DNA of 64,000 bases from Thermoanaerobaculia bacterium (lineage in GTDB: Bacteria > Acidobacteriota > Thermoanaerobaculia > UBA5066 > Gp7-AA6): NCBI GenBank assembly GCA_036395755.1, contig DASWCZ010000056.1, positions 12,074 to 76,073 on the forward strand, written 5' to 3'. The notes under the pieces were generated by a model. That model was not told the DNA's origin and made no database searches. It worked only from the letters and a program-made list of their open reading frames with translations. The translations under genes were made by a program, and so were the position numbers. This document shows positions 3,219 to 39,727 of this stretch, piece after piece (position 1 is the stretch's first letter; the number at the start of each line of letters is the position of its first letter).

Positions 3219-3262
3219 CGGACGGATCCCTCCGGACCCATCTGCTATTCTCGGTCGAGTCG

Positions 3263-10567: not shown

Positions 10568-10573
10568 GGAGAT

Positions 10574-10582
10574 CCCACCTCC
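10574..10582 (-). promoter_or_regulatory. Shine-Dalgarno GGAGGTGGG for the kinase gene
   Basis: The reverse complement of 10574..10582 is GGAGGTGGG, with 6-nt spacing to the TTG at 10567. Confidence 0.6.
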
Positions 10583-10652
10583 CGGGGATCGTTGCGATTG
10601 TAACCGCGAGGACCGCGCGGAAACGTTCTCGGATCGCGCTCTGTCCTTTAGA

Positions 10653-12339: not shown

Positions 12340-12353
12340 GCGCGCCGACACGC

Positions 12354-13709: not shown

Positions 13710-13734
13710 CCGGCGGTTCTCCTCTGACGCGGCG

Positions 13735-15681: not shown

Positions 15682-16526
15682 CGGGCGGCAGAAGCGTTGC
15701 CATCCCGGGCAGCGAAGAGAAAGCCGATGTCGCGGTGAGCCGGGTTGGGGCGCGTTCGAACCCGGAAACCCCGTTCCTCGAGGAAGCGGACGAGGTCGTC
15801 GCGCCCGAAGCGTGTGACCCCCTCGTGGTACTCCATCGCGATGCGCCGGATGCGTTGCAACCCGACCTCGCTCGCCCCGAAGAGGATGTCGTACTCCGCG
15901 CCTTCACAGTCGATCTTGAGAAAATCGCATCGCTCGATTTTCGAGCGCTCGAAGACCTGGTCGAGGGTGATCGCTTCGACGGGAGCCGCGGACCCCTTCT
16001 CTCGCGACAGCGTGCGGGATCGCTCCGCGAGACCCGCCTTGGTCGCCATGTAGAGCCGGCCCGCGTCGGCCGCGACGGCCAGCGGAAACGTGCGTACGTT
16101 GGCGAGCCGGTTCAGCTCGAGGTTCGCGAGAAGGAGGGCGTAGGACTCGGCAAGCGGCTCGAACGCGTAGACGGTGGAATCGGGACATTCCCGCGCGGTC
16201 GAGATCGCGAAATCGCCCAGCCCGGCGCCCAGATCGACCACCGTCCACCCGTTCTCGACCGGCACGAACCCGCGCTCGTAATCCCGGTCCAGGCAGGTCT
16301 CCTTGATGATCCAGATGTCCATCCGGCCGCGCACGCGGAAGCGGCAGCCGGTCGAGAGCTCGATTCCGAACGGGCGGCGGCCGGGAAAACCCAGGAACGC
16401 CGAGAGAACCCGCAGAGGAGGGCGGATCTGTCGAAGGAGGGTCGGGATCGAGCCGACGTAGTAACGCCAGCGCGACAACGGACCGACTCTCGAAAACTCT
16501 CTCGCGTCCACGCTAGCGGAGCACAT
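15666..16526 (-). CDS. FkbM-family SAM-dependent methyltransferase
   Basis: VVDLGAGLGDFAIS, VYAFEP and DFLKIDCEGAEYDIL are typical FkbM motifs. The start overlaps the upstream gene end by 14 nt. Confidence 0.85.
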   Translation of the reverse strand: MCSASVDAREFSRVGPLSRWRYYVGSIPTLLRQIRPPLRVLSAFLGFPGRRPFGIELSTGCRFRVRGRMDIWIIKETCLDRDYERGFVPVENGWTVVDLGAGLGDFAISTARECPDSTVYAFEPLAESYALLLANLELNRLANVRTFPLAVAADAGRLYMATKAGLAERSRTLSREKGSAAPVEAITLDQVFERSKIERCDFLKIDCEGAEYDILFGASEVGLQRIRRIAMEYHEGVTRFGRDDLVRFLEERGFRVRTRPNPAHRDIGFLFAARDGNASAARQGTE

Positions 16527-19071
16527 CCGCGAGGTTCCAGAAGTAGAGGTGGTTCGTCTCGCGGTCCGACACCGCCACGCGGCCGAGCGGGTCCACCGTC
16601 ACGCCGGTCGGTCGTTTGAAGATGCCGTCCGGCCTCCAGGAGTGACGCAGGTTGCCCGCGGCGTCGTACTCGTTGACGCGTCCTTCCGTCGAGTCGGTCG
16701 CGAAAATCGATCCGGTGGGTCCGATCGCGAGGTAAGGCTCGGTGTAGAAGTCTTTCCACCCGAATACTGGGAACTCCCGCACGAACTTGCCTTCGGAGTC
16801 GAATACCTGGATCCGGTGATTGCCGGTGTCCGCGACGTAGACGTTGCCGGCGGCGTCGGCCGCGAGTCCGACCGGCTCGACGAACTGACCCGGACCGCTG
16901 CCGGGCGTGCCCCAATCCGAGACGCGCTTTCCTTCCTTGTCGAATCGGACCACGCGCTTGTTTCCGGTGTCGGCCACGTAGAGGAAGCCGCGCGAGAGAA
17001 GGACGGCGCGGGGTCCGAAGAATCCCCTCACGTCGTCGGTCCAGACCCCGAGCCACGAGCCGTCCGCCTTGAAGCGGGCGATCCGATGGTTCCAGGTGTC
17101 GGCGACGACCACCGTTCCGTCGGCGTCGACGGCGACGCCGCACGGCTCCTTCAACTGCCCGTCACCCGAACCCGAAGTCCCGATCGCCCGGATGAACTGG
17201 CCGTTCGGGTCGAACACCTGGATGCGGCCGTTCTTGGTGTCGGCGACGTACAGGTTGGCGCGGGAATCGGCAGCGAGCCCGCGCGGCTCGTTGAACTGCC
17301 CGTTACCGGACCCCGGCTCTCCGAAGACGCGCGCGGGCGCGACGACTGTCGCGGAGCCGCCCGCATAGTCGCGCGCCGAGGTGTTCTGCAGCGGAACGTT
17401 CAAAGGGGCGAGCGGCCCGGAGCTCGCGAGGTCCTTTCGCACGAAGAAGGTCGAATCCTGGGAGCCGATCGGGCTCCAGATCTCGTGGAAGAGCCACCAG
17501 CGGGCGAGATCGGTCAGCGTCGGCCGAGCGGGCCCGTTCGGGTCGAGCTTGTATTTCTCGGCGAACCACCACGCCCGGATCGGGACGCGTTTGGCGGTGT
17601 ACTGCGCTGCGAGCTGTTTCTCGAGCCCGCCCTGCGGGTCCCAGTCCGAGATGAGGATCGGCGTGGTCGCGTCGTCGATGCGCGTGACCCACTTCGTCGG
17701 CATGTCGCGGAAGTACCAGGTCAGCGGCCAGGAAGCCTCGCCGGCGACGGTGACGACCGCCTCTCCAGGCGCGACTTTCCGGCGCGCGACATCGACCTGC
17801 TCGAGCGCCCGCGTCAGATCGCGGGTCGTCTGCACGTATGCCAGGATCTCGGCGTGCTTCGGCTCGCGCTCCAGGTCATGCGCCCCGTAGCGAAAGCACG
17901 CCAGGAGCATGCCGCTCGCGTTCACGAGAGCGAGGACGAAGAGCACCGCCAGCGCGAGCCGGGGGCGCTTTTCCCGCCGGTCGCGCCAGAGCGACGCGAA
18001 TCCGACCGCTGCGAGGATGGTGATCGGGAGGAGAGCGTGCACGGTCAGCCAGGGGACCTTCTCGCGCGCCCAGGCATAGAGAAGAAGCGACCCGATCGCC
18101 CAGAAAAGCACGAAGCGCAGGAAGGGGGAGGCGCGCTTTCCCGAACGCCGGAAGGCGAAGCAGGCCGCGAAGACTATCGCGGTCTCGTAGTAGAGAAGTT
18201 GTGGAACGTAGTAGTACCAGGGTCCCGGAATGCGCGCGATGGAATGCTGGCCCATCCAGTACTTGATTGCCTTGGGTATCGCGAGCCAGTCCTTCGGATA
18301 CTTCCCGAACGCCGTGTACATCAGCGCCCAGATCGCCAGAAACACGAGCGCCGCCGTGGCGATCGGAAGGATGCGCGCGCGGACCCAGCCCGCGGTTGCG
18401 CGGATGGCCTCGGCGAGCGCGTCTTTCCGCCCCTTCGCCAGCGCGACGCGCTCGACGAGGGCCCAGGCGCCGTAGGCGACGAACAGCACGCCGGTCATGT
18501 AGGCGTTTTCCTTCGTCACGCCGGCGAGCGCGAAAGAAACTGCGGCGAGCGTGAGCCAGTGCGCCCGGTCGGTCTCCAGGAAACTCTGGAATGCCAGGAT
18601 CGTCCCGAGCGTGAACACGAGGGAGTACACGTCCTCCCGGATGAACCGCGAAAAGTACGTCAGGTGCGGCGAGATCAGGACGAGAGCCGCGTACGCCGCG
18701 GCCGCGCCGGTGCCGACCCAGCGGGCGAGCGGGATCGCTGCGGCAATCAGGAGTAGGCCGAAAATCGCCGGGAGGAGCCGGGCCGTCGTGTTCGACGCGC
18801 CCAGCAGCCGGTAGACGAGAGCATTCGCGTAGTAAAGGAACGGCCCGTGGTAGGCCGGGTCGTATCGCCAGTTGCCGTCCTTCATCAGCGTGTAGGACTG
18901 GTGCGCGTGAATCGATTCGTCGTGATGGAACGGCCGGTCGCCGAGAGACCAGAACCTCGTCGTCAGAGCCAGGAGCGCGATCAGGATCCCGGCGGCCGCG
19001 ACCGCCTGCCGTCGAGCTGGCGCGCGTTCCGGTCTCTCCTCGATCTTTTCGAGGGTCTGCGGCTCCGTCAC
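16513..19071 (-). CDS. TIGR03663-like GT-C membrane protein fused to a C-terminal NHL-repeat beta-propeller
   Basis: N-terminal ~540-aa polytopic region with RPFHHDESIHAHQSY...YDPAYHGPFLYY. C-terminal ~290 aa carry NHL repeats (LYVADTKNGRIQVFD, VVVADTWNHRIARF, LYVADTGNKRVVRFD, VYVADTGNHRIQVFD). GTG at 19071 overlaps the upstream stop as GTGA. Confidence 0.8.
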   Translation of the reverse strand: MTEPQTLEKIEERPERAPARRQAVAAAGILIALLALTTRFWSLGDRPFHHDESIHAHQSYTLMKDGNWRYDPAYHGPFLYYANALVYRLLGASNTTARLLPAIFGLLLIAAAIPLARWVGTGAAAAYAALVLISPHLTYFSRFIREDVYSLVFTLGTILAFQSFLETDRAHWLTLAAVSFALAGVTKENAYMTGVLFVAYGAWALVERVALAKGRKDALAEAIRATAGWVRARILPIATAALVFLAIWALMYTAFGKYPKDWLAIPKAIKYWMGQHSIARIPGPWYYYVPQLLYYETAIVFAACFAFRRSGKRASPFLRFVLFWAIGSLLLYAWAREKVPWLTVHALLPITILAAVGFASLWRDRREKRPRLALAVLFVLALVNASGMLLACFRYGAHDLEREPKHAEILAYVQTTRDLTRALEQVDVARRKVAPGEAVVTVAGEASWPLTWYFRDMPTKWVTRIDDATTPILISDWDPQGGLEKQLAAQYTAKRVPIRAWWFAEKYKLDPNGPARPTLTDLARWWLFHEIWSPIGSQDSTFFVRKDLASSGPLAPLNVPLQNTSARDYAGGSATVVAPARVFGEPGSGNGQFNEPRGLAADSRANLYVADTKNGRIQVFDPNGQFIRAIGTSGSGDGQLKEPCGVAVDADGTVVVADTWNHRIARFKADGSWLGVWTDDVRGFFGPRAVLLSRGFLYVADTGNKRVVRFDKEGKRVSDWGTPGSGPGQFVEPVGLAADAAGNVYVADTGNHRIQVFDSEGKFVREFPVFGWKDFYTEPYLAIGPTGSIFATDSTEGRVNEYDAAGNLRHSWRPDGIFKRPTGVTVDPLGRVAVSDRETNHLYFWNLADVLR

Positions 19072-20090
19072 GGCTTCTTGCTGCCGGGGAGAAGGATCTT
19101 CGACACCCCATTGCTGGCGGAGTTGACGACGTACACGATGCGCTGCTTGCCGTCCAGAGCGAGTCCCGTCGGGCGCGCGAACGGCTTGCCCGAATCGTCG
19201 GAGCTCCACGTGTTTCGAACGGTTCCTCCGCTCGCGAGCTCGAGGACGGTGTTCCCGTTGGGATTGGTCACGTAGATCTCTCCCGTCTCGCCGACCTCGA
19301 GGAACGGTTCGGCCGCCCCTTCCCAAGCGGCGACCGGCAGTGATTTCTGGAACCGGCCTTCTTTATCGAGAACTTCGATCCGCCGATTACCGATGTCCGC
19401 GACGTAGACCTGCCCGCTGGGTCCGACGCCGATGCCAACCGGGCTCGAGAACTCGCCGGGGCCGGCGCCGAGCTTGCCGATCGCCCGCTGTTCCCCGAGC
19501 GACCGGTTGAAGACCACCACTTTGTGGTTGCCCGTGTCCGTGATCCACACCTTTCCGTCGGGCGCCGCAGCGACTCCGCGCGGTCCGAAGAATCCGGCTG
19601 CGGTCGCCTTCCATTCCCCCTTCACCGTGTAGTACTGGATCCGTCCGTTCCAGGTGTCCGCGACGTAGAGATCTTCTCCGCGCGCCGCGACGCCGGCGGG
19701 CTGCCTCAGACTAAAGGTCCCGTTACCCGGATTTCCCCAGCCGCCGAGGTATCCGCCGTTGCCGTCGAAGACCCGGATGCGCGAGTTGCCGAAGTCTGCA
19801 ATCCACAGCCTTCCTTCTCCATCCAGGGTCGCGTCGCGCGGCTCGCTCATGCCCGCGAAAGGCGGTCGCTCCTGGACGGGCGCCGAGCGGATCGACGGCT
19901 CCGTTGGCTCGCCGGGGTGCTTCGCCGCCGCCGGAGCCGCGCCCTCCGGCTTTGCCGGCGCTTCCTTTCGCCGGCACGCGATCGGAACGACGAGGAAAAG
20001 TAGGGCGAGCGCGACGCCGACTCCGGGGTGGCGGAAGCGTTTCGCGGGGGAGGGCTCCGTCCGGACGTGCGACGAGGATGAATCGGTCAC
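19068..20090 (-). CDS. NHL-repeat beta-propeller lipoprotein
   Basis: GTG at 20090 overlaps the upstream stop as GTGA. Lipoprotein signal ...GVGVALALLFLVVPIAC, a Pro/Ala linker, then a 265-aa NHL domain paralogous to the C-terminus of the upstream giant protein. Confidence 0.85.
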   Translation of the reverse strand: MTDSSSSHVRTEPSPAKRFRHPGVGVALALLFLVVPIACRRKEAPAKPEGAAPAAAKHPGEPTEPSIRSAPVQERPPFAGMSEPRDATLDGEGRLWIADFGNSRIRVFDGNGGYLGGWGNPGNGTFSLRQPAGVAARGEDLYVADTWNGRIQYYTVKGEWKATAAGFFGPRGVAAAPDGKVWITDTGNHKVVVFNRSLGEQRAIGKLGAGPGEFSSPVGIGVGPSGQVYVADIGNRRIEVLDKEGRFQKSLPVAAWEGAAEPFLEVGETGEIYVTNPNGNTVLELASGGTVRNTWSSDDSGKPFARPTGLALDGKQRIVYVVNSASNGVSKILLPGSKKP

Positions 20091-20884
20091 GGCGCTTTCC
20101 TTTCCGCAAGATTCAGCCGGGAGACGGAGTTGTTGCCCGAATCGATGACATACAGAATATCTCGCCGACGATCGAGAGCGAGGCCGGTCGGCTTCGCGAA
20201 CTTGCGGCCCTGGTCGTCCGCGCTCCACGTGCGCTCGACCGAGCCCGAAGAGTCGAACGCGCGGACCGCGCCGGTGGCGGGGTCAGCGGCATAGATCGTT
20301 TCGTCGCGGCCGATTTCGATGTGCGGTTCGACCGGTCCTTGCCATCCGGGCACGTCGAAGGCGCGCTGGAACTGGCCCGACGCGTCCAGGATCACGACCC
20401 GGTGATTCCCGACGTCGGCGACGTACACCGAGCCCGACGGGCCGACGGCGATCCCGACGGGACTCGAGAACTCTCCCGGGCCCGATCCCTTCTTTCCGAC
20501 GACCTGCCGGTTCTGCAGGACGGCGTCGTAAGTCACGAGCTGATGGTTCCCGGTGTCGGTCACCCAGACCTTTCCCTCCGCGGAAATCGCGACGCCGCGC
20601 GGCCCGTAGAGGCCCGCCGCCGAACCTTTCGGCTCACCGGCGAGAGTGAAGGACTGGAGACGGCCGTTCCAGGTATCGGCGATGTACAGGTCCTCTCCCC
20701 GGATCGCCACGGCGCAGGGCTCCCGCAGTCCGAAGGTGCCGCTGCCGCGGCCGCCCCATCCGCCGAGGTATCCGCCTCCTCCGTCGAAGATCCGCAGCCG
20801 CGAGTTGCCGAAGTCCGCGATCCAGATCCTGCCCTTTCCGTCCACGTCGCCGTCCCGGGGCTCCCGCATGCCGGAGAAGGGGGG
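19068..20884 (-). repeat. tandem duplication of a 798-nt NHL-domain coding module (19068..19865 and 20087..20884)
   Basis: My gapless hand alignment of the two 265-aa translations finds 153 of 265 positions identical. Long identical runs include WIADFGNSR, GEDLY.ADTWNGR, GPGEFSSPVGI.VGPSG.VYVAD and PTGLALD. Confidence 0.85.
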
Positions 20885-23800
20885 GCGTCCCTGCTCCGCC
20901 GTCTCCGCGATCGCGGGCGCCTCCTCTTGCTCGACGACCTCCGCGGCGCCCGCTGCCACCGGGACGTTCTCCTTCGCGGGCACGATGACGTCTTGCGAGT
21001 CGCCCCCGATGACCCGGTAGATCTTGACCTCCGGGTTCTCGTAAGCGCGCTCGAAGAGGTCCGTCGCGCGGTCGAACTTGCGCAGGCCTTCCGCGGGATA
21101 AGTCTTGCGCTCGAGCCAGCCGACGTAGACGTAACCGACGTGATATCGCCGCAGCAGGTGCTCGATGGGCGCGGCTTCCCGGCTGGAATAGATCCGCTCG
21201 ACCGCCTCGCGCCTCTCGACGACCTCCGTTTCTGGGTTGCCGCGCTGCTTGACGTGGTGCTCCCATCCGAGCACGGTCGGAAGCCCCGTCAGCATCGAGA
21301 TGCGGCTGAAGTCCTGGTACGGATCGCCGTGGGCTTCCAGGAGCACGGGCGTCCCCCGGATCGTCCGTCGAAGCCAGAGGACCGCGCGGTATTCACCGGG
21401 CCTCGTCTCCTCGAGGTATCGGAGCCCGTCGAGTGTGGGGCCCGAATACGCCGCGAAGTGGTTGCTGACCGCGCCGCGCGCGGCCGTGACGGTCGTGAAG
21501 AGAGCCGCGATGGCGAGGAGGAAGAGAACGGCGCGCGGAGGAAAACGCCAGCGCCCGTAGACGCCGCGTCGGTCCTTCGGCCGGAAGACGAGCGCGGCGG
21601 CCGCGACCGCGAAGAGGAGCCAGGCCTCCAGGTAGAGCTTGAAGATCGTGTTCATCCGGTCGGAGATGTAGACCTTCTGCGTGAAGAGGATCAGAAAGAA
21701 GGCAGCGGCGACGAAGCCGCAGGCGAGTCGCTCGTCCGGATCGGTCGCGCGGTCGGCGGCCGCGGCGAAAAAGAGCAGGACGCCCGCGCAGGCGAAGACT
21801 TCCACCGAGAGAAATCCGAGCAGGGCGAGCAGGCCGCCGACGGCCGCCACGAGGATGAGGCGCATTCGTCTCTCGAGGCCCTGCTCCGCCATCCGGTCGG
21901 AGACGAAGCCGAGCAGCCACGCAAACGCGAGGAAGAAGAAGAGACCGAACACGGTCACGACGTCGACGCCTTTCGCGCCGGGCTCCTGTTCCCAGCCGAA
22001 CCCCGGGCTTCCACCCCCGTGCACCCAGAGAGGAGCGGCGGTCGCCCAGGCGGCCGCCACGGTCGTGAGCACGCCCGGCGCCATTCGCGCGAGGTGCGCC
22101 GGCGCGAATCGGCCGGCGGAGGCAGTCACCAGGAAGACGATTCCGCACAGGCCGGCGAGTAGCGGCGCGTCCCACGCGTTCGTCAGGGCCTGCGCCGCGG
22201 CGGCGAAGCCCAGGATCGCGCCCGATGCGATCCGCGAGATCGGCCTCGCGGGCGGGCTGGAGTTCACGCGGACGAAGTGGAGGGCGGCGGCGCCGACGAG
22301 CAGAAAGAGCGGCATCGCGAGGACGTGCGCGTGCAGGTCCGCGAAGACGAGGCTCCAGAACGGGTACTCGTTGATGGTGTCCTTGATGATGCGGGAGGTC
22401 GCCCAGAAATAGTTCCAGTCGAGGGCTCGATGATTGAGCAGCCACTCGCGCAGGCCCGAGAGATTCCCGAGGACCACGGCCAGCCCTGCGCCGGCGACGC
22501 CGGCTCGCACCGTTCCCGTCCAGTTGCGCAGGAGGGTGAAGGAGCCCTGCAGCATCAGCCCGCCGAGCAGCCCGAAGGCGAGATTGAACGTGAAGCGGGT
22601 AGAGAGCCCGGTTAAGAGCGTCAGGAAAGCGATCATCTGCTGCCCGAACGCGTAGTAGCCGAGCGGAGCGCCGGCGAACCAGGGATCGGAGGCGGGGAGA
22701 GTCCGGGTCCGCACGAGGATGTTCAGGATCGAGAAGTCCATCGGCTTCTCTCCCCAGTAGATCTCGGGGTTGAACGCGCGGATGCCGAGGAAGAGGAGGA
22801 ACCCGAGAGCAAACGCCGCCTCGCCCGCGACCACGAGGCGCCGGCGCTCGCGGAAGAAGTCGATAATCAACCGCCGCCGCGCGAAGAAGAGGAGCGCAGA
22901 GGGAAGCGCCGCGAGCGCCAGACACGTCCACGCCGCCCCGCGTCCGTTGGATAGGATCCGAAGCTGGACGAGCACGGCGAAAAGGAAAGTCGTTCCGACG
23001 ATTCCCAGGATTCTGGAGACACCGGCGCCGCGGTCCGCCAGGCGCGGGAAGAACGCGTGCGCGAGAGGAAACGCGACCGCTCCCACCAGAAGGATCCCCA
23101 GGTACCACAGGATTGCGGCGCCGAAGGATCCGATCGCGATCTCCCGGGTTCCCGATCCCACCAATGTCTTGTCGAAGTCCGCGCGGTGGGGAGGGTAGAT
23201 CGGCGACGTCACGGTCCGCTTCGACCGCGGCCACTTCTCCCAGTCTCCGAGCGTCGGCGGCGTCTGCGGCATCGAGGCGAGAAGGATCTGCGTCACCCGC
23301 CCGGGGGAGAACTGTTTGTTCTTGCGGAAGAGGACGACCCGCGGATGGTCGTAAACCGTGAACTGCTCCTCGGCGCGGTCGTCCGGGACCTTCAACGGCC
23401 CGAGCGTCGGGTAGGAATTGAAGTCGGCGGCGAGGTCGAAGCCCAGCCGTCCCTCGAAGAGCGCGCTGTAGTAGGCGCGCGACATCGGAAAAACTGCGGG
23501 GATCCGGGTCAGGTTCACGTAGACGCGGTTGCTGGTGACCGCAATCCAGTCCGATTCCTTCAGGACCTTGACGACGTCTTCCACCTTTCTCGGCGAGTCC
23601 GGATCGAAGAGGGTCAGCTGCGGTCCGTTGTAGGCGCCCATGTCGTATCCCGGCAGAGGAAGCGGCAGGGCATCGTCCCAGGACTCGTTCGCGAAGCGCG
23701 CTGGCGGCGGCACGTTCTCGTAGATCCACTTCGCCGCGGCCACGCGGGGATGCGGACGGCGGTAGATCGACGTGAAAGCAAGGCCCCAGAGAAACGTTCC

Positions 23801-25018
23801 GGCGACCGCGATCGCCGGAAGGAAACGCAGGACCCGGGCGCTCTGACGGCGCGCGCTTCGCGCGCGCGCGGCGAGGTCGCCGAGGAACAGCGTGGCGAGC
23901 ACCGCGAGCGCGGGGTACGCCGGGTAGAAATAGCGGATCGACTTGACGATCGAGAGGCCGTGGTAGAGCAGGAGAAACACGGCGTGCGCCACGAGCGGCA
24001 CGAGAGCCCGCCGCGCCCCCTTTCTCGCGACGAGAACGGCCCAGCCGAGCGCGGCGAGCGCCGGGAGCGCGAAGAACGGTCCGGCGCCCCAGAAAACCAT
24101 GTTTCCGATCGGGAAAAGGATCGTGCGTCCCGCCCATTGGAACGCGGGCGGGAATCCGGAGACGCTCGAGGAGAGCTCCGCCAGCCGCTTCATGTCCGCC
24201 AGGTAGCGCGGATCCAGCCGGAAGGAGAAGAATCCCGAGCCGGCGAACGCGTAAGGCAGGCCGAAACGCACCGCGACCGCCGCCGCCGCCAGGCAGAGGG
24301 CGAAGCGGCCCGCCATCCCGGCGATCCGGGGGCCGGGACTCCTCTCCTCTCGCGGCGTGTCGCGTCGAAAAGCGCCGATCAGGAGTCCCAGGCCGACCGG
24401 CACGAAGAGCGCGAGCGCGGTCACTTTGCAGGAGGCCGCGAAGCCGAGGGCGACACCGGTCAGGACGACTTCCAGGGGGCGGGAACGACCCTGCGCGAGG
24501 TGGACCGCGCCTAAGAGCGTCGCGGTAGAGAAGGCGGTCAGGAACGTGTCGACCGCCCAGAAGTGCGAGAGCTGAAGTCCGAGCGGACAGAATGCCAGAA
24601 GGGCCGCCGCCGCGAGCGCCAGCCGGCGATCTTTGGAGAACCGCCGGGCGAGAAGGTAGGCGAGCCACACCGAGGCTAAGTCCGCGAAGGCGGAGAGCAC
24701 CCGGCCGACGAGATAGGCGCCGCCGTAGCCGCTCTTTCCGAGGAGGCCGGCGACGGCTTTCGTCACGAAGATTGGCAGAGTTCCGTAGACGAACGAGTCG
24801 TGGCCGCGGTTGTAGGGGTTGAGCGATGACCGCGCCGAATCGAAGTACGCGGCCGGGCTCTTCGGGAACACGAGCTTCTCCTCGACCATCGAGATGAAGC
24901 GCTCGTCCGGGTGGAGATGGTGCCCCGCGTCCCAGTCGAGACCGGAGAGACGCAGGACGGCCCCAGCGGCGATCAGGACGAAAAAGAGCTGGCGGGCGCG
25001 GTGCCGGCTCAGGCGCAA
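20087..25018 (-). CDS. 1643-aa three-module envelope protein: GT-C (PMT_2/ArnT-like) + DUF2298 ('YYY', TIGR03662-like) + NHL beta-propeller
   Basis: TTG start at 25018 (MRLSRHRARQLFFVLIAAGAVLRL). First periplasmic loop has HPDERF. The central region has DTINEYPFWSLVFADLHAHVLAMPLFLL, typical of DUF2298. The last 265 aa are NHL repeats. Coding bias is continuous and there are no internal stops. Confidence 0.85.
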   Translation of the reverse strand: MRLSRHRARQLFFVLIAAGAVLRLSGLDWDAGHHLHPDERFISMVEEKLVFPKSPAAYFDSARSSLNPYNRGHDSFVYGTLPIFVTKAVAGLLGKSGYGGAYLVGRVLSAFADLASVWLAYLLARRFSKDRRLALAAAALLAFCPLGLQLSHFWAVDTFLTAFSTATLLGAVHLAQGRSRPLEVVLTGVALGFAASCKVTALALFVPVGLGLLIGAFRRDTPREERSPGPRIAGMAGRFALCLAAAAVAVRFGLPYAFAGSGFFSFRLDPRYLADMKRLAELSSSVSGFPPAFQWAGRTILFPIGNMVFWGAGPFFALPALAALGWAVLVARKGARRALVPLVAHAVFLLLYHGLSIVKSIRYFYPAYPALAVLATLFLGDLAARARSARRQSARVLRFLPAIAVAGTFLWGLAFTSIYRRPHPRVAAAKWIYENVPPPARFANESWDDALPLPLPGYDMGAYNGPQLTLFDPDSPRKVEDVVKVLKESDWIAVTSNRVYVNLTRIPAVFPMSRAYYSALFEGRLGFDLAADFNSYPTLGPLKVPDDRAEEQFTVYDHPRVVLFRKNKQFSPGRVTQILLASMPQTPPTLGDWEKWPRSKRTVTSPIYPPHRADFDKTLVGSGTREIAIGSFGAAILWYLGILLVGAVAFPLAHAFFPRLADRGAGVSRILGIVGTTFLFAVLVQLRILSNGRGAAWTCLALAALPSALLFFARRRLIIDFFRERRRLVVAGEAAFALGFLLFLGIRAFNPEIYWGEKPMDFSILNILVRTRTLPASDPWFAGAPLGYYAFGQQMIAFLTLLTGLSTRFTFNLAFGLLGGLMLQGSFTLLRNWTGTVRAGVAGAGLAVVLGNLSGLREWLLNHRALDWNYFWATSRIIKDTINEYPFWSLVFADLHAHVLAMPLFLLVGAAALHFVRVNSSPPARPISRIASGAILGFAAAAQALTNAWDAPLLAGLCGIVFLVTASAGRFAPAHLARMAPGVLTTVAAAWATAAPLWVHGGGSPGFGWEQEPGAKGVDVVTVFGLFFFLAFAWLLGFVSDRMAEQGLERRMRLILVAAVGGLLALLGFLSVEVFACAGVLLFFAAAADRATDPDERLACGFVAAAFFLILFTQKVYISDRMNTIFKLYLEAWLLFAVAAAALVFRPKDRRGVYGRWRFPPRAVLFLLAIAALFTTVTAARGAVSNHFAAYSGPTLDGLRYLEETRPGEYRAVLWLRRTIRGTPVLLEAHGDPYQDFSRISMLTGLPTVLGWEHHVKQRGNPETEVVERREAVERIYSSREAAPIEHLLRRYHVGYVYVGWLERKTYPAEGLRKFDRATDLFERAYENPEVKIYRVIGGDSQDVIVPAKENVPVAAGAAEVVEQEEAPAIAETAEQGRPPFSGMREPRDGDVDGKGRIWIADFGNSRLRIFDGGGGYLGGWGGRGSGTFGLREPCAVAIRGEDLYIADTWNGRLQSFTLAGEPKGSAAGLYGPRGVAISAEGKVWVTDTGNHQLVTYDAVLQNRQVVGKKGSGPGEFSSPVGIAVGPSGSVYVADVGNHRVVILDASGQFQRAFDVPGWQGPVEPHIEIGRDETIYAADPATGAVRAFDSSGSVERTWSADDQGRKFAKPTGLALDRRRDILYVIDSGNNSVSRLNLAERKAP

Positions 25019-25157: not shown

Positions 25158-25991
25158 TCACGCCGGCTTGCGCGCCTTCACGGAGAGGATCACGGCGCTC
25201 CGGCCCTCCTCGCGCGGGCGATTCCAGGAGTCGATCGCATTCAGCAGCGAGCGTGCGACGTGGAGCGGCCTCCAGGAGCGGCCCGGGGCGTCCCCATAAC
25301 GGAATCGGTCCGCTTGAGGCAGCACTCCCGATTCGACCAGCCGCATGCCGAGTCCGTACACCAGATTATGAGCGAACGGAAAACAGTGGTGCACGAACTG
25401 CCGGGGGTCCTCGGCGACGAGATCGGCTCGCCTGACGAGATCGATCAGCTTTTCGCGCGTGTAGAGACGCACGTGGTTCGTCCAGATTCCTCCGAAGAAT
25501 CCGCTGCGGATCGGCGCAAGTCCGAGACGTTCCAGCGACCAGTTGATCGGATCCCATAGGAACGGGTAGTCGTGATTGGGGACCGTGATCGCGATCGTTC
25601 CGCCCGGCCGGACGACGCGCTTGACCTCGAGCAGTCCCGGAAGATCTTCGGGAAGGTGCTCCAGGACTTCCGACAGGATGACCTTGTCGAACGCCCCGTC
25701 CGCGTAGGGGAGGCGGGTGACGCTGCCGGCCGCGAGCGACACGCGGGAAGAGATCTCGGCTCGCGCGCGGCGGAGCCTCGGCAGATCGTTGTCGATGCCG
25801 GTCAACCGGCAGGGCGCGAGCTCGTCGATGACCTTCAGGAACCACCCGAGACCGCAGCCGCAGTCGAGAACGCGCTCGCCCGGCCGGGGCTGGAGGTACT
25901 CGAGCACGATCCGCAGGCGGTGTTTGGCCGCCATGTCCGCTTCGTTCGCGAGCATCCGCTGGAGCTTCGCGGCATCGTCGGGCGTGCTCAC
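25158..25991 (-). CDS. class I SAM-dependent methyltransferase
   Basis: VLDCGCGLGW (motif I), FDKVILSEVLEHL and RVVRPGGTIAITVP. GTG at 25991 overlaps the GT4 stop as GTGA. The rest of the 702-aa ORF is Arg/Pro-rich artefact. Confidence 0.85.
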   Translation of the reverse strand: MSTPDDAAKLQRMLANEADMAAKHRLRIVLEYLQPRPGERVLDCGCGLGWFLKVIDELAPCRLTGIDNDLPRLRRARAEISSRVSLAAGSVTRLPYADGAFDKVILSEVLEHLPEDLPGLLEVKRVVRPGGTIAITVPNHDYPFLWDPINWSLERLGLAPIRSGFFGGIWTNHVRLYTREKLIDLVRRADLVAEDPRQFVHHCFPFAHNLVYGLGMRLVESGVLPQADRFRYGDAPGRSWRPLHVARSLLNAIDSWNRPREEGRSAVILSVKARKPA

Positions 25992-27145
25992 CACCGCGGT
26001 CGGAAGGCCCGCGCCGGAGAAGGCGTCTCCAGGCGCTCCAGCACGCCCTCGTACTCCGACACGCACCGTTTCGGGTCGAACAGGTCTTCGATTGCCTGGC
26101 GCGGCCGCACGTATTTTTCCCTTTCGTCGAGCACGGCGAGGATGCCGGCCGCCAGGGCCGCCGGGTCGGCCGGCTCGACCGTCAGTCCCATGCCGGTCTC
26201 GCGGACCGGGACCCGCGCGCCGGGGATGTCCGTCGCCACGACGGGCGTTCCGCACATCATCGCCTCCGGCTGCACCAGCGCAAGGCAGTCGGTCCGGCTC
26301 GGCAGGACGAAGACGTCGAGCATCGAGTAGAAATTCGCGAGCTTCTGCGGGTCGGAGACCAGCCCGAGCATCGTTACATGGGGCCGCACCTTCTCCAGGA
26401 GCGCCGCGCACCGCGAGAAGAAATCCTCGTACCCCATCCGGGTCTCTCCCGCGTAGACGAAGTGCGCGTCGGGCGCCTTCGCGAGAACATCGGGAATCGC
26501 CTGCAGGAGGTAGTCGAACCCCTTTTCCTCGACCCAGCGGCCCGCGAACCCCACCAGGCGCCGACCCGAGAGGTTGAGCTCCGCCTTCCACCGCGAGGAG
26601 TCTTCGGAGCGAGGCACCGGAATCACCACCGGCGGCAGGATCGCGTCGGTCTTCTGAAGGTACGGCTGGAGGAAAGGGGAATGGCTCGCGTAGTCGGTGC
26701 TGTACGCAACGATCCGGGTCGCCTGGGAGAGCGCGCGACGCATCAGGAAGGTCACCGCGCGCTCGACCGCTTGGTTGAGTAGTCCCGCCGGCATCGTCAG
26801 GTCGCCGTGGTGTGTCAGGACGACCGGCTTCTTCAGGAGGCGCCCGAACAGTGTGACGAGAGGAGCTTCCAGAATCGGGGTGTGGACCTGCACGACGTCG
26901 GCCCGGCGCATCTCGCGCCACAACGCCGCCGGAAACGACGGCATCACCACGCCCCGGCTCACGCGGCCCATGACCGGGAGGCGGACGACGCGGACACTCT
27001 CGATCGTTTCCTCGAGAGCGAGCTTCGGATCGTGACGGGAGGTCAGGACCGTCACGGAGTGGCCTCCGGCCGCGAGCCCTTCCGCCAGACGCTTCGCGTA
27101 CGCGGTCAGGCCCGTCCAGTGGGGGTGGTAGTACGTCAGGATCAT
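25988..27145 (-). CDS. GT4 glycosyltransferase
   Basis: MILTYYHPHWTGLTAYAKRLAEGLAAGGHSVTVLT and the E-x7-E region PSRTDCLALVQPEAMMCGTPVVATD. ATG at 27145. Confidence 0.88.
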   Translation of the reverse strand: MILTYYHPHWTGLTAYAKRLAEGLAAGGHSVTVLTSRHDPKLALEETIESVRVVRLPVMGRVSRGVVMPSFPAALWREMRRADVVQVHTPILEAPLVTLFGRLLKKPVVLTHHGDLTMPAGLLNQAVERAVTFLMRRALSQATRIVAYSTDYASHSPFLQPYLQKTDAILPPVVIPVPRSEDSSRWKAELNLSGRRLVGFAGRWVEEKGFDYLLQAIPDVLAKAPDAHFVYAGETRMGYEDFFSRCAALLEKVRPHVTMLGLVSDPQKLANFYSMLDVFVLPSRTDCLALVQPEAMMCGTPVVATDIPGARVPVRETGMGLTVEPADPAALAAGILAVLDEREKYVRPRQAIEDLFDPKRCVSEYEGVLERLETPSPARAFRPRW

Positions 27146-27192: not shown

Positions 27193-29397
27193 TCACTTCT
27201 GCGGCCGGACGCGGTAGATCGCGGTCGCGCCGCCCCGGGCGGGCTCCAGGAACGGGAACGCCGCAACCCGCGGCGCCTCCGGATAAGCGCTGCGCTCGAG
27301 GTCTCCCACGATCACGTGAGTCACGTGATAACGGTCGAGGATTTGGTGCGCGGCCCGGGGGTCCGACGCCGAGTAGAACTTGCGCACCTCCTCCAATCGG
27401 GCCATCACCTCGGGGGCGTTCGACCGCCACAGCCCTTCGTGGTTCGCCCAGCCCATCACGGTGGGGATGCCAGTGTGGGAGGAGATCCGGGCGTACTCCG
27501 TGTACGGGTTCCCCGAGGCTTCCATCACGACCGACCTGCTCGGCGCGTTCTTTACGAGCCACTCGATCGCCTGGAGGTCCCCGGGGTTTCGCCGTCTGAG
27601 CGCCCGCCGCGCATCGAGGGAGAAGGCTCCGTCGCGCTGGCGCAGGCGGGAGACCGCGGCGGTCATCGGGTAGAGCAGAGCGGCGAACACCGCCAGAACG
27701 AGGACGAAAACGAGCGACCGCCGCGGCACCTTCGTGGCCCGCCACGCGCGGTCCACGAACACGACGGCGCCGATTCCCAGCAGAGGCCAGGCCTGGTGAT
27801 AGAACTTGAAGATCGTGTTCATACGGTGCAGCTGCTCGCCGTAGGAGTCCTTGAAGTAGACGACCTCGCATCCGGCGATCATCCCGAGCGCGAGAAGACA
27901 GAGAAAGGCGGCGAACAGGACGCCGCGGTCCGGCTCGCGCCGGAGGGAACGCCACGCGGCGCGGCCGGCGAGAAAAACGAGAAAAAGGATCGGGGCGAGC
28001 GCGGGGGCCTTCCTCGCGAACGCGAGACCGAGGGAAACGACCGCCGCTGCCGCGAGAAGAAAGTCGCGCCAACGCCGTCCTTCCTCGGTGTCTTCGGGAG
28101 CGGAAAGAAGAAGTCCCGTCGCCGCGACGGCGAACAGGATCCCCCAGACGCCCAGGAATTCGAGGATGCCGGACGTCGCGTGGGTCTTTCCGATTCCGTT
28201 GTAGGGCAGATGGTAGGAGGTCCGATAGGGCTGTGTCAGGAAGAGCGCGAGGAGGACCGCTCCGGCGCCGGTCAACGCACCCGACAGGGCCGTTCCGAGC
28301 CGCGGCAGCCCCTCGCCGCGCGTCGTGCGGGCCGCGCCGGCAAAGACGAGCAGCATCGCGATCGCCGGGGCGTTCCAGAGGTTCGCTCCGATTGCCGCCG
28401 CCGCGACGAGCGCAACGAGAAGGAACGGTGCCCATCGCGAGAGGAAAGACCCGGCGGCGGGTTTTGACTCTGGACCCTGATCTCTCGACTCCGGCAATCC
28501 GGCTTCGATCCATCGATCCGCAACCGCGAAAGTCGCCAGGAAGAAGGGGAAGGCGAGCAGGTGGGGGTGCAGGTCGGCGTGAAAGAACGTGAAGAACGGG
28601 AACTCGTTGATCGTGTCGCCCGAGCCGATGACGCGCGAGGCGTGGAAGTAGTCGAAATCCCTGGCGAACGGTGTCGCCCAGGCCTCGAACGCGCCGGCCA
28701 GATTTCCCGCGAAAACGCTCGCGAAGCCGGCCCCGATCGCCGCCGCAGTCCGTCCCCGGGAAAGGCGAAACCCGAGACACGCCGCCGCGGCGAAGGAGTA
28801 CCCGGCGAAGGTCGCGATCGCGAGGTTGTAGGCGACGAATGGAGTGACCCCGGCCGCTTTCGCGACCGTGGCCGCCAGCAGGTAGCCCCAGTAGTAGTAG
28901 TTGATCGTGTTCCCCGCCATCCACGGATCGGCGGGGGGCATGTCGGGCCATCGCGTGAGCGAGTTGAAGAACGCGAGATCCATGAACTTCTCGGCTCCGA
29001 GGATCTCGGGGACCGCGGCCCGGATCACGAGGAAGATCGCGGCCGGCGCCCAGAAGAAGAGCGCGCCCCGGTTTTCCTCCGGGCCCCAGAAGCGACCGGT
29101 CTCACGGCCGGCCCTGCGGCGGGAGAAGAAGGACGCGCCGGCGAGAGCCGCGACCGACAGAAGAATCGTGCCGCGCGAAAAGCCGAACGGGAGCACCAGA
29201 GACAGGGCCCACGCGAGCCAGCCGGCGAGGACGAGGCCGACCGGCCGCGAGAGGAGCGCGGCGTCGCGCCGGTTGGCGAAGAAGAGGCGAAGCGCCGGCA
29301 AGACCGCGAGACCGAGGATCTCGACGGCCAGGGCCCAGGCCAAGATGTTCCGCACTGAGAAGAGTTTATAGTCCAAGTCCGCGGTCGCAGGGGGCAC
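27193..29397 (-). CDS. DUF2298 ('YYY', TIGR03662-like) polytopic membrane protein
   Basis: 734 aa with DTINEFPFFTFFHADLHPHLLAFPFFLATF and a YYYWGY motif. It is paralogous to the central module of the 1643-aa protein. GTG start at 29397, with an alternative GTG at 29355. Confidence 0.82.
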   Translation of the reverse strand: MPPATADLDYKLFSVRNILAWALAVEILGLAVLPALRLFFANRRDAALLSRPVGLVLAGWLAWALSLVLPFGFSRGTILLSVAALAGASFFSRRRAGRETGRFWGPEENRGALFFWAPAAIFLVIRAAVPEILGAEKFMDLAFFNSLTRWPDMPPADPWMAGNTINYYYWGYLLAATVAKAAGVTPFVAYNLAIATFAGYSFAAAACLGFRLSRGRTAAAIGAGFASVFAGNLAGAFEAWATPFARDFDYFHASRVIGSGDTINEFPFFTFFHADLHPHLLAFPFFLATFAVADRWIEAGLPESRDQGPESKPAAGSFLSRWAPFLLVALVAAAAIGANLWNAPAIAMLLVFAGAARTTRGEGLPRLGTALSGALTGAGAVLLALFLTQPYRTSYHLPYNGIGKTHATSGILEFLGVWGILFAVAATGLLLSAPEDTEEGRRWRDFLLAAAAVVSLGLAFARKAPALAPILFLVFLAGRAAWRSLRREPDRGVLFAAFLCLLALGMIAGCEVVYFKDSYGEQLHRMNTIFKFYHQAWPLLGIGAVVFVDRAWRATKVPRRSLVFVLVLAVFAALLYPMTAAVSRLRQRDGAFSLDARRALRRRNPGDLQAIEWLVKNAPSRSVVMEASGNPYTEYARISSHTGIPTVMGWANHEGLWRSNAPEVMARLEEVRKFYSASDPRAAHQILDRYHVTHVIVGDLERSAYPEAPRVAAFPFLEPARGGATAIYRVRPQK

Positions 29398-39632: not shown

Positions 39633-39659
39633 CTTCCTCCTTGGTGGAAGTGAGGTTCG

Positions 39660-39727
39660 GAGGCCGCCTGTATTCTGACTCCCCCGAAGGCTGTGCTGTC
39701 TCTTGGACAAAAGTCGCAGGCGGCCTC
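39660..39727. repeat. 11-bp perfect inverted repeat (gaggccgcctg / caggcggcctc) with a 46-nt spacer
   Basis: The arms at 39660..39670 and 39717..39727 are exact reverse complements. They lie between the DUF72 stop (39734) and the fibre-protein start (39632). Confidence 0.6.

What the first reader, a model, noticed from the sequence alone, without database searches (positions are those of the whole stretch)
20087..25018. 1643-aa single polypeptide fusing a PMT_2-like GT-C module, a DUF2298 module and an NHL propeller
The ORF is uninterrupted. It has about 560 aa resembling ArnT/PMT-type enzymes, with HPDERF in the first loop. About 600 aa follow carrying the DUF2298 hallmark DTINEYPFWSLVFADLHAHVL. 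The protein ends with a linker and the NHL domain.

DUF2298 also occurs alone in the same operon (27193..29397). A covalent fusion of DUF2298 to a recognisable glycosyltransferase module is direct guilt-by-association evidence that DUF2298 proteins work with, or are themselves, GT-C enzymes.
Basis: partly seen in the sequence, partly recalled or inferred. Interest (0 to 1): 0.7.

Follow-up and report, generated by a model that had tools for sequence, protein, structure and literature searches.

The report
Two-module membrane glycosyltransferase with propeller
This is a real, widely conserved 1643-residue membrane protein that joins two distantly related lipid-sugar-dependent (GT-C) glycosyltransferase modules to a periplasmic propeller. 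The second module is the uncharacterised family DUF2298, which is therefore very probably a glycosyltransferase family itself.

Summary
ORF 20087..25018 (-) is uninterrupted and coding-like throughout. It contains a PMT-type module (aa 1-~600, HPDERF at 36-41), a DUF2298/TIGR03662 module (aa ~631-1340) and a six-bladed NHL propeller (aa ~1385-1643). It is not an assembly artefact: more than 120 full-length orthologues exist, some on Mb-scale contigs, and single ORFs of the same build occur in Binatia and Myxococcales.

AlphaFold2 models of both membrane modules are confident (pLDDT 88-89). Each matches only GT-C(A) enzymes in the PDB (STT3/AglB, ArnT, DPY19, AftA, PMT, ALG). Profile-profile comparison shows that DUF2298 is a remote homologue of module 1: three extra N-terminal helices, then a colinear 13-helix core and a periplasmic domain. 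Both modules keep invariant loop-1 acidic residues (D38/E39; E757).

The gene lies in a translationally coupled cassette that is conserved across phyla: DUF2298, GT4, methyltransferase, fusion, NHL protein, Agl23-family GT-C+NHL.

The fusion is not rare. 79 of the 150 nearest DUF2298 cluster representatives carry module 1 sequence. Substrates are unknown, and no published functional work on DUF2298 was found.

Verdict: an ordinary-looking but uncharacterised tandem GT-C enzyme, of moderate interest.

The parts
20087..25018 (-). Whole gene: 1643-aa protein with a predicted 27 TM helices (module 1, module 2, linker, NHL). Stop codon at 20087-20089.
   Evidence: uninterrupted, uniform GC3; full-length orthologues; 27 helices; short 'in' loops carry 0.32 K+R per residue against 0.08 for 'out' loops.
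23759..25018 (-). Module 1 membrane core (aa 1-420): 11-TM PMT/ArnT-like GT-C(A) module.
   Evidence: Pfam PMT E 1.3e-12. AF2 pLDDT 87.8, pTM 0.90. Foldseek returned 38 GT-C hits with probability >=0.99: STT3, ArnT, AglB, ALG12, Pmt4, AftD, PglB, Emb, PimE.
24896..24913 (-). HPDERF (aa 36-41) in the first periplasmic loop of module 1. D38/E39 are the candidate catalytic pair.
   Evidence: Present in all 113 orthologues that cover this region. D and E are 100% conserved in 48 diverse cluster representatives (printed numbering is -1).
23219..23758 (-). Module 1 periplasmic alpha/beta domain (aa 421-~600) with an invariant VYDHP motif.
   Evidence: AF2 secondary structure; conservation. In ~915-1110-aa relatives the same domain occurs with only one TM helix in front of DUF2298.
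21464..23128 (-). Module 2 membrane part (aa 631-1185): DUF2298/TIGR03662, made of 3 extra N-terminal TM helices plus a 13-TM GT-C(A) core.
   Evidence: AF2 pLDDT 89, pTM 0.91. Foldseek top 12 hits are all GT-C(A): DPY19, STT3, AglB, ArnT, AftA. hhalign to module 1 begins at module-2 residue ~95-105.
22736..22753 (-). GEKPMD (aa 756-761) in the loop-1 equivalent of module 2. E757/K758 align with E39/R40 of module 1.
   Evidence: E757 is 100% and K758 94% conserved in 123 representatives. Two independent hhalign alignments pair ER with EK, at low per-column confidence.
22322..22378 (-). TINEYP...FADLHAHV (aa 881-899): periplasmic loop and helix end carrying E884, D894, H896 and H898. Candidate metal or phosphate site.
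   Evidence: 99-100% conserved family-wide. Placed on the 'out' side in the topology model.
21638..21661 (-). DRMNTIFK (aa 1120-1127): conserved periplasmic-face motif with N1123 and K1127.
20999..21463 (-). Module 2 periplasmic alpha/beta domain (aa 1186-1340).
   Evidence: AF2. Aligns with the periplasmic domain of module 1 (hhalign local E 7e-5). Foldseek hit to the AglB C-terminal globular domain 3vu0_B: probability 0.93, TM-score 0.49 normalised to the target.
20867..20998 (-). Acidic Ala/Pro/Glu-rich linker (aa 1341-1384).
   Evidence: Sequence. Poorly conserved among orthologues.
20090..20866 (-). Six-bladed NHL beta-propeller (aa 1385-1643), predicted periplasmic.
   Evidence: Pfam NHL 105.7 bits. 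PDB profile hits include the PknD sensor domain, TRIM71 and the Pizza6 designs.
27193..29397 (-). Stand-alone DUF2298 gene (734 aa), first gene of the cassette.
   Evidence: Found upstream of the fusion in most related loci, including other phyla.
25988..27145 (-). GT4 (GT-B fold, cytoplasmic) glycosyltransferase, 385 aa.
   Evidence: Conserved position.
25158..25991 (-). Class I SAM methyltransferase. Its GTG start overlaps the GT4 stop codon (GTGA).
19068..20090 (-). Separate NHL propeller protein (340 aa) with an N-terminal hydrophobic, lipobox-like anchor (LFLVVPIAC). Its start overlaps the fusion stop codon (GTGA).
   Evidence: 57% identical to the NHL domain of the fusion.
16513..19071 (-). 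TIGR03663 (Agl23-family) GT-C module fused to an NHL propeller (852 aa). Its start overlaps the preceding stop codon (GTGA).
   Evidence: TIGR03663 340.7 bits against a cut-off of 126.25. Present downstream in 40 of 46 long loci.
15666..16526 (-). FkbM-family methyltransferase, last gene on this strand.
   Evidence: Present in 11 of 46 loci.

Best explanation
Proposed identity: an inner-membrane enzyme with a predicted 27 TM helices and two active sites, both facing the periplasm.

Anatomy:
- Module 1 is an 11-TM PMT/ArnT-like GT-C(A) glycosyltransferase.
- Module 2 (DUF2298) is a remote paralogue. It has three extra N-terminal helices that carry the chain back across the membrane, then a 13-TM GT-C(A) core and its own periplasmic domain.

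Proposed mechanism (inferred):
- Each module takes a polyprenyl-phosphate-linked sugar from the outer leaflet.
- Each module uses its invariant loop-1 acid (D38/E39 in module 1; E757 in module 2, with D894/H896/H898 nearby) to transfer the sugar to an acceptor.
- The tethered NHL propeller holds that acceptor.

Proposed pathway role (inferred): the protein acts with the stand-alone DUF2298, a cytoplasmic GT4, methyltransferase(s) and an Agl23-family GT-C+NHL protein. Together they would assemble or decorate a periplasmic or cell-surface glycoconjugate, by analogy with mycobacterial PIM/LM/LAM and arabinan assembly.

Shown here: gene integrity, domain order, fold, homology of the two modules, conserved residues, topology consistency and cassette conservation.

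Inferred only: catalysis by both modules, donor type, acceptor and product.
For: - Integrity and conservation.
- Fold: AF2 pLDDT 89 and 87.8. Foldseek gives only GT-C(A) enzymes at probability 1.0 for both modules.
- Homology of module 1 to DUF2298: hhalign probability 86% (E 5e-7) against module 2, and 96.9% (E 2.4e-10) against an independent stand-alone DUF2298 profile. The match is colinear from TM1 to the periplasmic domain. The reversed control gives 0.1%.
- Active-site-like residues are invariant in diverse relatives of both modules. All fall on the periplasmic side of a topology that obeys the positive-inside rule.
- Cassette: GTGA start/stop overlaps and the same gene order in three phyla.
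- Possible donor synthesis: a DPPRS-like UbiA protein and a Dol-P-hexose-transferase-like GT2 lie within 10 kb in 32-35 of 46 Thermoanaerobaculia loci.
Against: - No DUF2298 protein has been characterised in anything I could read.
- Structural matches are remote: TM-score 0.32-0.41 normalised to the query, about 10-14% identity.
- HMM searches link DUF2298 to no other Pfam GT-C family and to no PDB sequence.
- The per-column confidence of the DE-to-EK alignment is low.
- Two acidic residues in the loop-1 motif of module 2 (E752, D761) are not conserved family-wide.
- The UbiA/GT2 genes score below their curated cut-offs and were not found beside the cassette in the Binatia and Myxococcales loci.
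- A GT-C-like protein (Agl23) has been reported to translocate lipid-linked sugars rather than transfer them (PMC11182771).
- The acceptor is unknown.
Confidence: 0.6

Rival explanations
1. Only one module is a transferase. The other is a GT-C-derived, non-catalytic partner that flips or delivers the polyprenyl-phosphate sugar, or scaffolds the acceptor. Either module 1 or DUF2298 could be that partner. The fusion would then couple donor supply to transfer.
For: - The Agl23 family (TIGR03663) is GT-C-like, and purified Agl23 translocated a lipid-linked oligosaccharide in proteoliposomes (PMC11182771).
- An Agl23-family gene sits in the same operon, and module 1 has a weak TIGR03663 hit (22 bits).
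- No dedicated flippase gene was recognised in the conserved core cassette.
Against: - Both modules keep invariant acidic, basic and His residues on the periplasmic face across very diverse relatives. That is the pattern expected of active sites.
- DUF2298 is common as a stand-alone protein and as tandem DUF2298-DUF2298.
- Module 1 scores far below the Agl23 cut-off (22 against 126.25).
Confidence: 0.2
2. The DUF2298 module transfers en bloc, like an oligosaccharyltransferase, ligase or polymerase. It would move a pre-assembled glycan from a polyprenyl-diphosphate carrier, built by the cytoplasmic GT4 and methyltransferase, onto a protein or lipid. Module 1 and the Agl23-like enzyme would then add single sugars.
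For: - STT3 and AglB are among the best structural matches of module 2, and its C-terminal domain resembles the AglB globular domain.
- The 13-TM core matches the STT3/ArnT count.
- A cytoplasmic GT4 and a methyltransferase lie between the two DUF2298 genes.
Against: - No WWDYG-type motif or other OST signature was seen, and no STT3 Pfam hit was found even at E<=1.
- No initiating phosphoglycosyl transferase or Wzx-type flippase was recognised in the cassette.
- ArnT, DPY19 and AftA, which use monosaccharide donors, match about as well.
Confidence: 0.15
3. The single ORF is an artefact: a sequencing or assembly error has joined separate PMT-like, DUF2298 and NHL genes.
For: In high-GC DNA long ORFs arise easily, and separate DUF2298 and NHL genes do exist in the same operon.
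Against: - GC3 is uniform along the ORF.
- More than 120 independent full-length orthologues come from different projects, including Mb-scale contigs.
- The same build occurs in other phyla.
- The topology requires the extra helices that link the modules.
Confidence: 0.01
4. The central DUF2298 module is a transporter, unrelated to glycosyltransferases.
For: It is a large polytopic membrane domain with no HMM-level similarity to GT-C families. MFS proteins appear lower in the Foldseek list.
Against: MFS and other transporter hits have probability 0.05-0.28 and TM-scores of about 0.1, against probability 1.0 for twelve GT-C enzymes. Profile homology to module 1 beats a reversed control by a wide margin.
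Confidence: 0.02

Closest known systems
ArnT (GT83) and bacterial/eukaryotic PMT (GT39) lipid-sugar-dependent GT-C(A) transferases
   Same: Module 1 has a Pfam PMT hit, a DE pair at the start of the first periplasmic loop, about 11 TM helices and a C-terminal periplasmic domain. ArnT (5ezm/5f15) and Pmt4 are among its best structural matches. NCBI names one m1-m2-NHL relative (P0163) 'glycosyltransferase family 39 protein'.
   Different: The PMT profile is matched only over positions 81-198 of 245. The ArnT equivalog model scores 19 bits against a cut-off of 567. No MIR domain is present. The module is followed in the same chain by a second GT-C module and a propeller.
STT3/AglB/PglB oligosaccharyltransferases (GT66) and DPY19 C-mannosyltransferase (GT98)
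   Same: These are the best structural matches of the DUF2298 module. They share a 13-TM core followed by a periplasmic/lumenal globular domain.
   Different: Sequence identity is 10-14% and there is no HMM-level similarity. DUF2298 has three additional N-terminal helices and so an N-out start. Its signature motifs differ: GEKPMD, YY(Y)xG, TINE(Y/F)P, DLHxH, RMNTxFK.
Mycobacterial Emb/Aft arabinosyltransferases and PimE/Mpt mannosyltransferases in LM/LAM/arabinan assembly
   Same: Several GT-C enzymes with periplasmic accessory domains act after cytoplasmic GT4 enzymes and use polyprenyl-P-sugars. A DPPRS-like UbiA gene lies nearby here.
   Different: In those systems each GT-C is a separate polypeptide (Emb proteins form dimers). 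Their accessory domains are carbohydrate-binding modules, not NHL propellers. No evidence here identifies the sugar or the lipid anchor.
TMTC1-4 (GT-C module + TPR repeats)
   Same: A GT-C(A) membrane module is fused to a C-terminal repeat domain that faces away from the cytoplasm and is thought to engage the acceptor (PMC7801869).
   Different: TMTCs have a single GT-C module and TPR repeats rather than an NHL propeller, and they are eukaryotic.
Agl23 / TIGR03663 family (archaeal 'flippase activity-associated' GT-C-like proteins)
   Same: A member fused to NHL is encoded two genes downstream (340.7 bits). From my memory of the TIGRFAMs notes, the family co-occurs with TIGR03662.
   Different: Module 1 of the fusion is not a member (22 bits against a cut-off of 126.25).

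Membership tests
DUF2298 (PF10060) / TIGR03662 Chlor_Arch_YYY | HMM score above the curated cut-off over the whole domain | tested here: met
   PF10060 scores 265.2 bits against 27.8. TIGR03662 scores 457.7 bits against 300.25 and covers profile positions 2-726 of 727.
DUF2298 (PF10060) / TIGR03662 Chlor_Arch_YYY | Name-giving YYYxG motif (recalled from the TIGRFAMs description) | tested here: inconclusive
   The fusion has YYAFG (aa 788-792), and its orthologues conserve YY.FG. The stand-alone paralogue has YYYWG. The third Tyr is 91% conserved family-wide.
GT-C(A) fold glycosyltransferases | Fold similarity to solved GT-C(A) structures | tested here: met
   Module 2 gave 12 hits at E<=1e-3, all GT-C(A) with probability 1.0. 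Module 1 gave 38 GT-C hits with probability >=0.99. The best non-GT-C hit has probability below 0.3. TM-scores are only 0.3-0.58.
GT-C(A) fold glycosyltransferases | Conserved acidic residue(s) at the start of the first extracytoplasmic loop | tested here: met
   D38/E39 and E757 are 100% conserved in diverse representatives. They lie in 'out' loops of a topology that fits the positive-inside rule.
GT-C(A) fold glycosyltransferases | Transfer from a polyprenyl-phosphate-linked sugar donor | not testable with these tools
   This needs biochemistry. The only context is DPPRS-like UbiA and Dol-P-hexose-transferase-like GT2 genes nearby, both below their curated cut-offs.
GT39 / PMT (module 1) | Pfam PMT above the gathering score, plus a DE motif in loop 1 | tested here: met
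   48.3 bits against 22.7, although only profile positions 81-198 of 245 are matched. The DE pair is invariant.
GT39 / PMT (module 1) | MIR domain in the large lumenal loop (eukaryotic PMTs) | tested here: not met
   No MIR hit in the Pfam scan. The periplasmic domain is C-terminal and alpha/beta.
ArnT (GT83) equivalog | NCBIfam PRK13279 score above the cut-off | tested here: not met
   19.2 bits against 567.
Agl23 / TIGR03663 (module 1) | HMM score above the cut-off | tested here: not met
   22 bits against 126.25. The neighbouring gene 16513..19071 does meet it, at 340.7 bits.
NHL-repeat six-bladed beta-propeller | Repeated NHL motifs spanning about 260 aa, with similarity to solved NHL propellers | tested here: met
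   PF01436 scores 105.7 bits against 20. The PDB profile search hit Pizza6, TRIM71 and PknD (E 1e-25 to 1e-50) over aa ~1430-1640.

The most novel reading that the evidence does not exclude
DUF2298 would be an unclassified GT-C(A) glycosyltransferase family, with about 6,500 clusters at 50% identity and no CAZy family that I know of. Its distinguishing features would be a 3+13-helix build and a Glu...Asp-x-His-x-His periplasmic site. Proteins that string two or three GT-C modules together, with propellers as acceptor clamps, would act as covalently linked 'assembly lines'. These would add successive sugars to a methylated surface glycan or lipoglycan of Acidobacteriota and other little-cultured phyla.
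Probability: 0.35. Interest if true: 0.65.

Novelty: new variant of a known kind. Interest (0 to 1): 0.45.

Why it matters
DUF2298 is a large, widespread membrane-protein family. In this search it gave 6,496 clusters at 50% identity with E<=1e-3 (2,130 of them at E<=1e-30). I found no functional literature on it.

Showing that it is a divergent GT-C module would give a concrete, testable hypothesis for the whole family. That module is habitually fused or co-encoded with a PMT-like module, a GT4 and NHL propellers. The result also points to specific residues to mutate.

It would flag an uncharacterised envelope-glycan pathway in Acidobacteriota, Binatia and Myxococcota.

Multi-module GT-C polypeptides could also show how periplasmic glycan assembly steps are coupled. 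New GT-C families are still being founded when a member is characterised, for example GT136 in 2024 (PMC11127046).

Tried and rejected
- phmmer of either module against PDB sequences found nothing.
- A full-length profile against PDB returned only NHL proteins.
- A stand-alone DUF2298 profile against PDB gave one chance hit, E 0.8.
- A Pfam scan of 40 stand-alone DUF2298 proteins at E<=1 found no other GT-C family. The GT-C link is therefore invisible to plain HMMs and rests on structure prediction and profile-profile comparison.
- Literature searches for DUF2298, PF10060, TIGR03662, the YYY domain, COG5427, CL0111, AglS and HVO_1526 found no functional statement on DUF2298.
- The AglS paper (PMC3510580) and the MMBR review (PMC4054257) are not held. 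I could not settle which family the characterised archaeal Dol-P-Man mannosyltransferase AglS belongs to.
- I could not check whether Pfam places PF10060 in clan GT-C.
- My first hydropathy-window TM scan was too noisy. I replaced it with AF2 helices plus the positive-inside rule.
- My first tblastn for the Agl23-like module used an out-of-frame translation and wrongly suggested the gene was absent elsewhere. The corrected search found it in 40 of 46 loci.
- I rejected the artefact and transporter readings (see rivals).
- I did not model both modules together. The tool returns no coordinates or PAE, so packing could not have been read.

Full report
**1. Observation**

The window is about 68% G+C, so long open frames are common. 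ORF 20087..25018 (-) is nevertheless a true gene.
- It is 1643 codons long with a TTG start. An AGGGA ribosome-binding-like site lies 5 nt upstream.
- Third-position G+C stays at 0.78-0.93 in every 60-codon window sampled, with no frame switch.

Domain searches:
- Pfam finds PMT (aa 101-214, E 1.3e-12), DUF2298 (aa 680-1136, E 1.6e-78) and NHL repeats.
- NCBIfam finds TIGR03662 'Chlor_Arch_YYY' over aa 632-1336 at 457.7 bits, against a cut-off of 300.25.
- The stand-alone DUF2298 gene at 27193..29397 (-) is confirmed.

**2. Not an artefact, and not rare**

- A search of 5.8 billion proteins listed 120 homologues at 56-93% identity. All but one (a partial protein of 1392 aa with 84% coverage) cover at least 97% of the query and are 1582-1684 aa long. 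All 120 carry DUF2298 and NHL hits, and all but three also carry a PMT or PMT_2 hit. Sources name them only 'DUF2298 domain-containing' or 'YYY domain-containing'.
- In one-genome-per-species contigs, 199 stretches encode a relative. Most are from Thermoanaerobaculia/Acidobacteriota, several on 1-4 Mb contigs.
- A gene call on a 4.28 Mb contig is 1643 aa.
- Full-length single ORFs also exist at 31-37% identity in Candidatus Binatia (L061, 1592 aa) and a Myxococcales MAG (L070, 1621 aa). Relatives are also named from Schekmanbacteria and 'Tritonobacter'.

An exhaustive HMMER scan with module 2 found 6,496 clusters (50% identity) at E<=1e-3. I sorted the 150 best by architecture:

| Architecture | Count |
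|---|---|
| DUF2298 alone | 62 |
| module 1-DUF2298 | 56 |
| module 1-DUF2298-NHL | 23 |
| DUF2298-NHL | 9 |

- The module 1-DUF2298 class includes ~1300-aa forms, ~2000-2700-aa module 1-DUF2298-DUF2298 forms, and ~915-1110-aa forms.
- The ~915-1110-aa forms carry only the last helix and periplasmic domain of module 1.
- This sample is biased towards relatives of the query. Even so, it shows that the fusion is a standard architecture.
- From memory, the TIGR03662 description already mentions an extra N-terminal region and duplicated copies.

**3. What the modules are**

AlphaFold2 models were built with 46-47-sequence alignments. They are confident: module 2 has pLDDT 89.0 and pTM 0.91, and module 1 has pLDDT 87.8 and pTM 0.90.

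Foldseek against the PDB:
- Module 2 gave twelve hits at E<=1e-3, all with probability 1.0 and all GT-C(A) enzymes: DPY19, yeast and human STT3, AglB, ArnT and AftA. The next hits are MFS and other transporters at probability below 0.3 and TM-score about 0.1. The C-terminal domain resembles the AglB globular domain.
- Module 1 gave 38 GT-C hits, including STT3, ArnT, AglB, ALG12, Pmt4, ALG9, AftD, PglB, Emb and PimE.

Plain HMM methods see none of this for DUF2298.

Profile-profile comparison does see it.
- Module 1 against module 2: global probability 86%, E 5e-7, aligning module 1 residues 1-566 to module 2 residues 95-720.
- Module 1 against an independent profile of 40 stand-alone DUF2298 proteins: global probability 96.9%, E 2.4e-10; local 86%, E 5e-6.
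- The reversed-sequence control gives 0.1% (global) and 5.5% (local).

DUF2298 is therefore a remote homologue of the PMT-like module. It has three extra N-terminal helices, then a colinear core and periplasmic domain.

**4. Active-site-like features and topology**

- In module 1, W29-D30-x-G-H-H-L-H-P-D38-E39-R-F is present in all 113 orthologues that cover this region.
- D38, E39, R106, R358/Y359 and D549-H550-P551 are 100% conserved in 48 diverse representatives (numbering corrected by +1).
- In DUF2298, E757, Y788, H896, H898 and W949 are 100% conserved in 123 representatives. K758, R770, R876, E884, D894, N1123 and K1127 are 94-99% conserved.
- Both hhalign alignments pair E39-R40 with E757-K758, at low per-column confidence.
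- Taking the AF2 helices as TM segments gives 11 + 16 = 27 helices, with the N-terminus inside and the C-terminus outside.
- Short 'in' loops carry 26 K+R in 81 residues. Short 'out' loops carry 15 in 186.
- Every conserved motif, both alpha/beta domains and the NHL propeller fall on the outside.
- The three extra helices of DUF2298 are what allow a module that ends outside to be followed by another whose core begins inside.

**5. Context**

The genes on this strand are, in order:
- DUF2298 (27193-29397)
- GT4 (25988-27145)
- SAM methyltransferase (25158-25991)
- the fusion
- an NHL protein with a lipobox-like N-terminus (19068-20090; 57% identical to the fusion's propeller)
- a TIGR03663/Agl23-family GT-C fused to NHL (16513-19071; 340.7 bits)
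- an FkbM methyltransferase (15666-16526)

Three junctions are GTGA start/stop overlaps.

Conservation of the order:
- DUF2298, GT4, (methyltransferase), fusion, GT-C+NHL recurs throughout Thermoanaerobaculia.
- It also recurs in Binatia. In the Myxococcales locus the downstream ORF gave only NHL-type hits in the NCBIfam scan, so its GT-C part is unconfirmed.
- Within 10 kb in 32-35 of 46 long loci lie a UbiA protein, a small GT2 and an FAD oxidoreductase. The UbiA protein best matches decaprenyl-phosphate phosphoribosyltransferase (181 bits, below the cut-off of 234). The GT2 best matches dolichyl-phosphate hexose transferase.
- These are plausible donor-synthesis genes. They were not found beside the cassette in the other phyla.

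**6. Mechanism**

- The best-supported reading is a bifunctional periplasm-facing GT-C enzyme. Its two modules each transfer a sugar from a polyprenyl-phosphate carrier to an acceptor presented by the NHL propeller.
- It would work in a pathway primed in the cytoplasm by the GT4 and methyltransferase.
- Fold, homology, conserved residues, topology and cassette are shown. Catalysis, donor, acceptor and product are inferred by analogy with ArnT, PMT, STT3 and the mycobacterial Emb/Aft/PimE enzymes.
- The main rival is that one module is a non-catalytic donor-handling partner. The motivation is Agl23, a GT-C-like protein reported to translocate lipid-linked glycans (PMC11182771).
- A second rival is OST-like en-bloc transfer by DUF2298.
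- The artefact and transporter readings are excluded.

**7. Novelty**

- The sequence family and its architectures are already in databases, and the fold is a known one.
- The full-text library holds only two passing mentions of DUF2298 and no functional work.
- Tandem GT-C modules in one chain with a propeller have not been characterised in anything I could find.
- I rate it a new variant of a known kind, of moderate interest. It is still useful as a concrete handle on a large uncharacterised family.

Noticed in passing
window 13507-15681 (+); likely true start 13678 or 13735: A ~650-720-aa polytopic membrane protein with a C-terminal soluble domain and no Pfam or NCBIfam hit. It lies between the FAD oxidoreductase and the FkbM gene. 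Relatives (37-62% identity) occur next to the cassette in 23 of 46 loci, in either orientation. It could be yet another divergent GT-C-like protein.
   Followed up: partly
window 10491-13709 (+): A UbiA-family protein best matches decaprenyl-phosphate phosphoribosyltransferase (181 bits, below its cut-off). It is followed by a 250-aa GT2 that best matches Dol-P-hexose transferase, ArnC and PpgS, then an NAD_binding_8/amine-oxidase-type flavoprotein. The trio is 60-89% identical and syntenic in 32-35 of 46 Thermoanaerobaculia loci. It may make polyprenyl-P-sugar donors, or it may be carotenoid-related.
   Followed up: partly
representatives P0154, P0160, P0184, P0188 and others (about 915-1110 aa): Many DUF2298 proteins carry only the last TM helix and the periplasmic alpha/beta domain of module 1 (query aa ~390-590) in front of DUF2298. 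This suggests that the domain works with DUF2298 rather than only with its own membrane core.
   Followed up: partly
representatives P0132, P0135, P0136, P0141, P0145, P0147, P0153 and others (about 2000-2750 aa): Single polypeptides contain module 1 plus two DUF2298 copies, which is three GT-C-like modules and roughly 40 or more TM helices. Others carry two NHL propellers (P0165, P0243, P0202).
   Followed up: no
window 29421-31989 (+): LigD functions are encoded as separate ORFs divergent from the cassette: a phosphoesterase domain at 29421-30119 and a Prim-Pol domain in 30628-31989. Relatives have three separate genes (L079, L081). The same LigD neighbourhood is conserved in many loci.
   Followed up: no
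window 32013-36187 (+): A second envelope-glycan group: a PIG-V-like GT-C (weak), a LegC/PseC-like aminotransferase, a 247-aa GT2 (AglJ/ArnC-like) and a 124-aa protein with weak Polysacc_synt_C and cupin hits. It looks like an Arn-type polyprenyl-P-aminosugar route.
   Followed up: no
window 37779-39710 (-): A 643-aa protein with a C-terminal Peptidase_S74 (endosialidase chaperone) domain, in a stretch of lower G+C (~0.64). It resembles a tail fibre or autotransporter and may be of mobile-element origin.
   Followed up: no
window 43710-44870 (-): Another polytopic protein with a sub-threshold PMT_2 hit (23.1 bits against 26.1). The window therefore holds at least six GT-C-like modules.
   Followed up: no
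window 97-5392 (+): An alpha-glucan metabolism block: an alpha-amylase-family protein, GH57+DUF3536 and a glycogen-phosphorylase-like protein.
   Followed up: no
L079 8895-9962: In a 72%-identical orthologous locus, an NAD-dependent epimerase/dehydratase gene is inserted between the methyltransferase and the fusion. This hints at a modified nucleotide sugar feeding the pathway.
   Followed up: no
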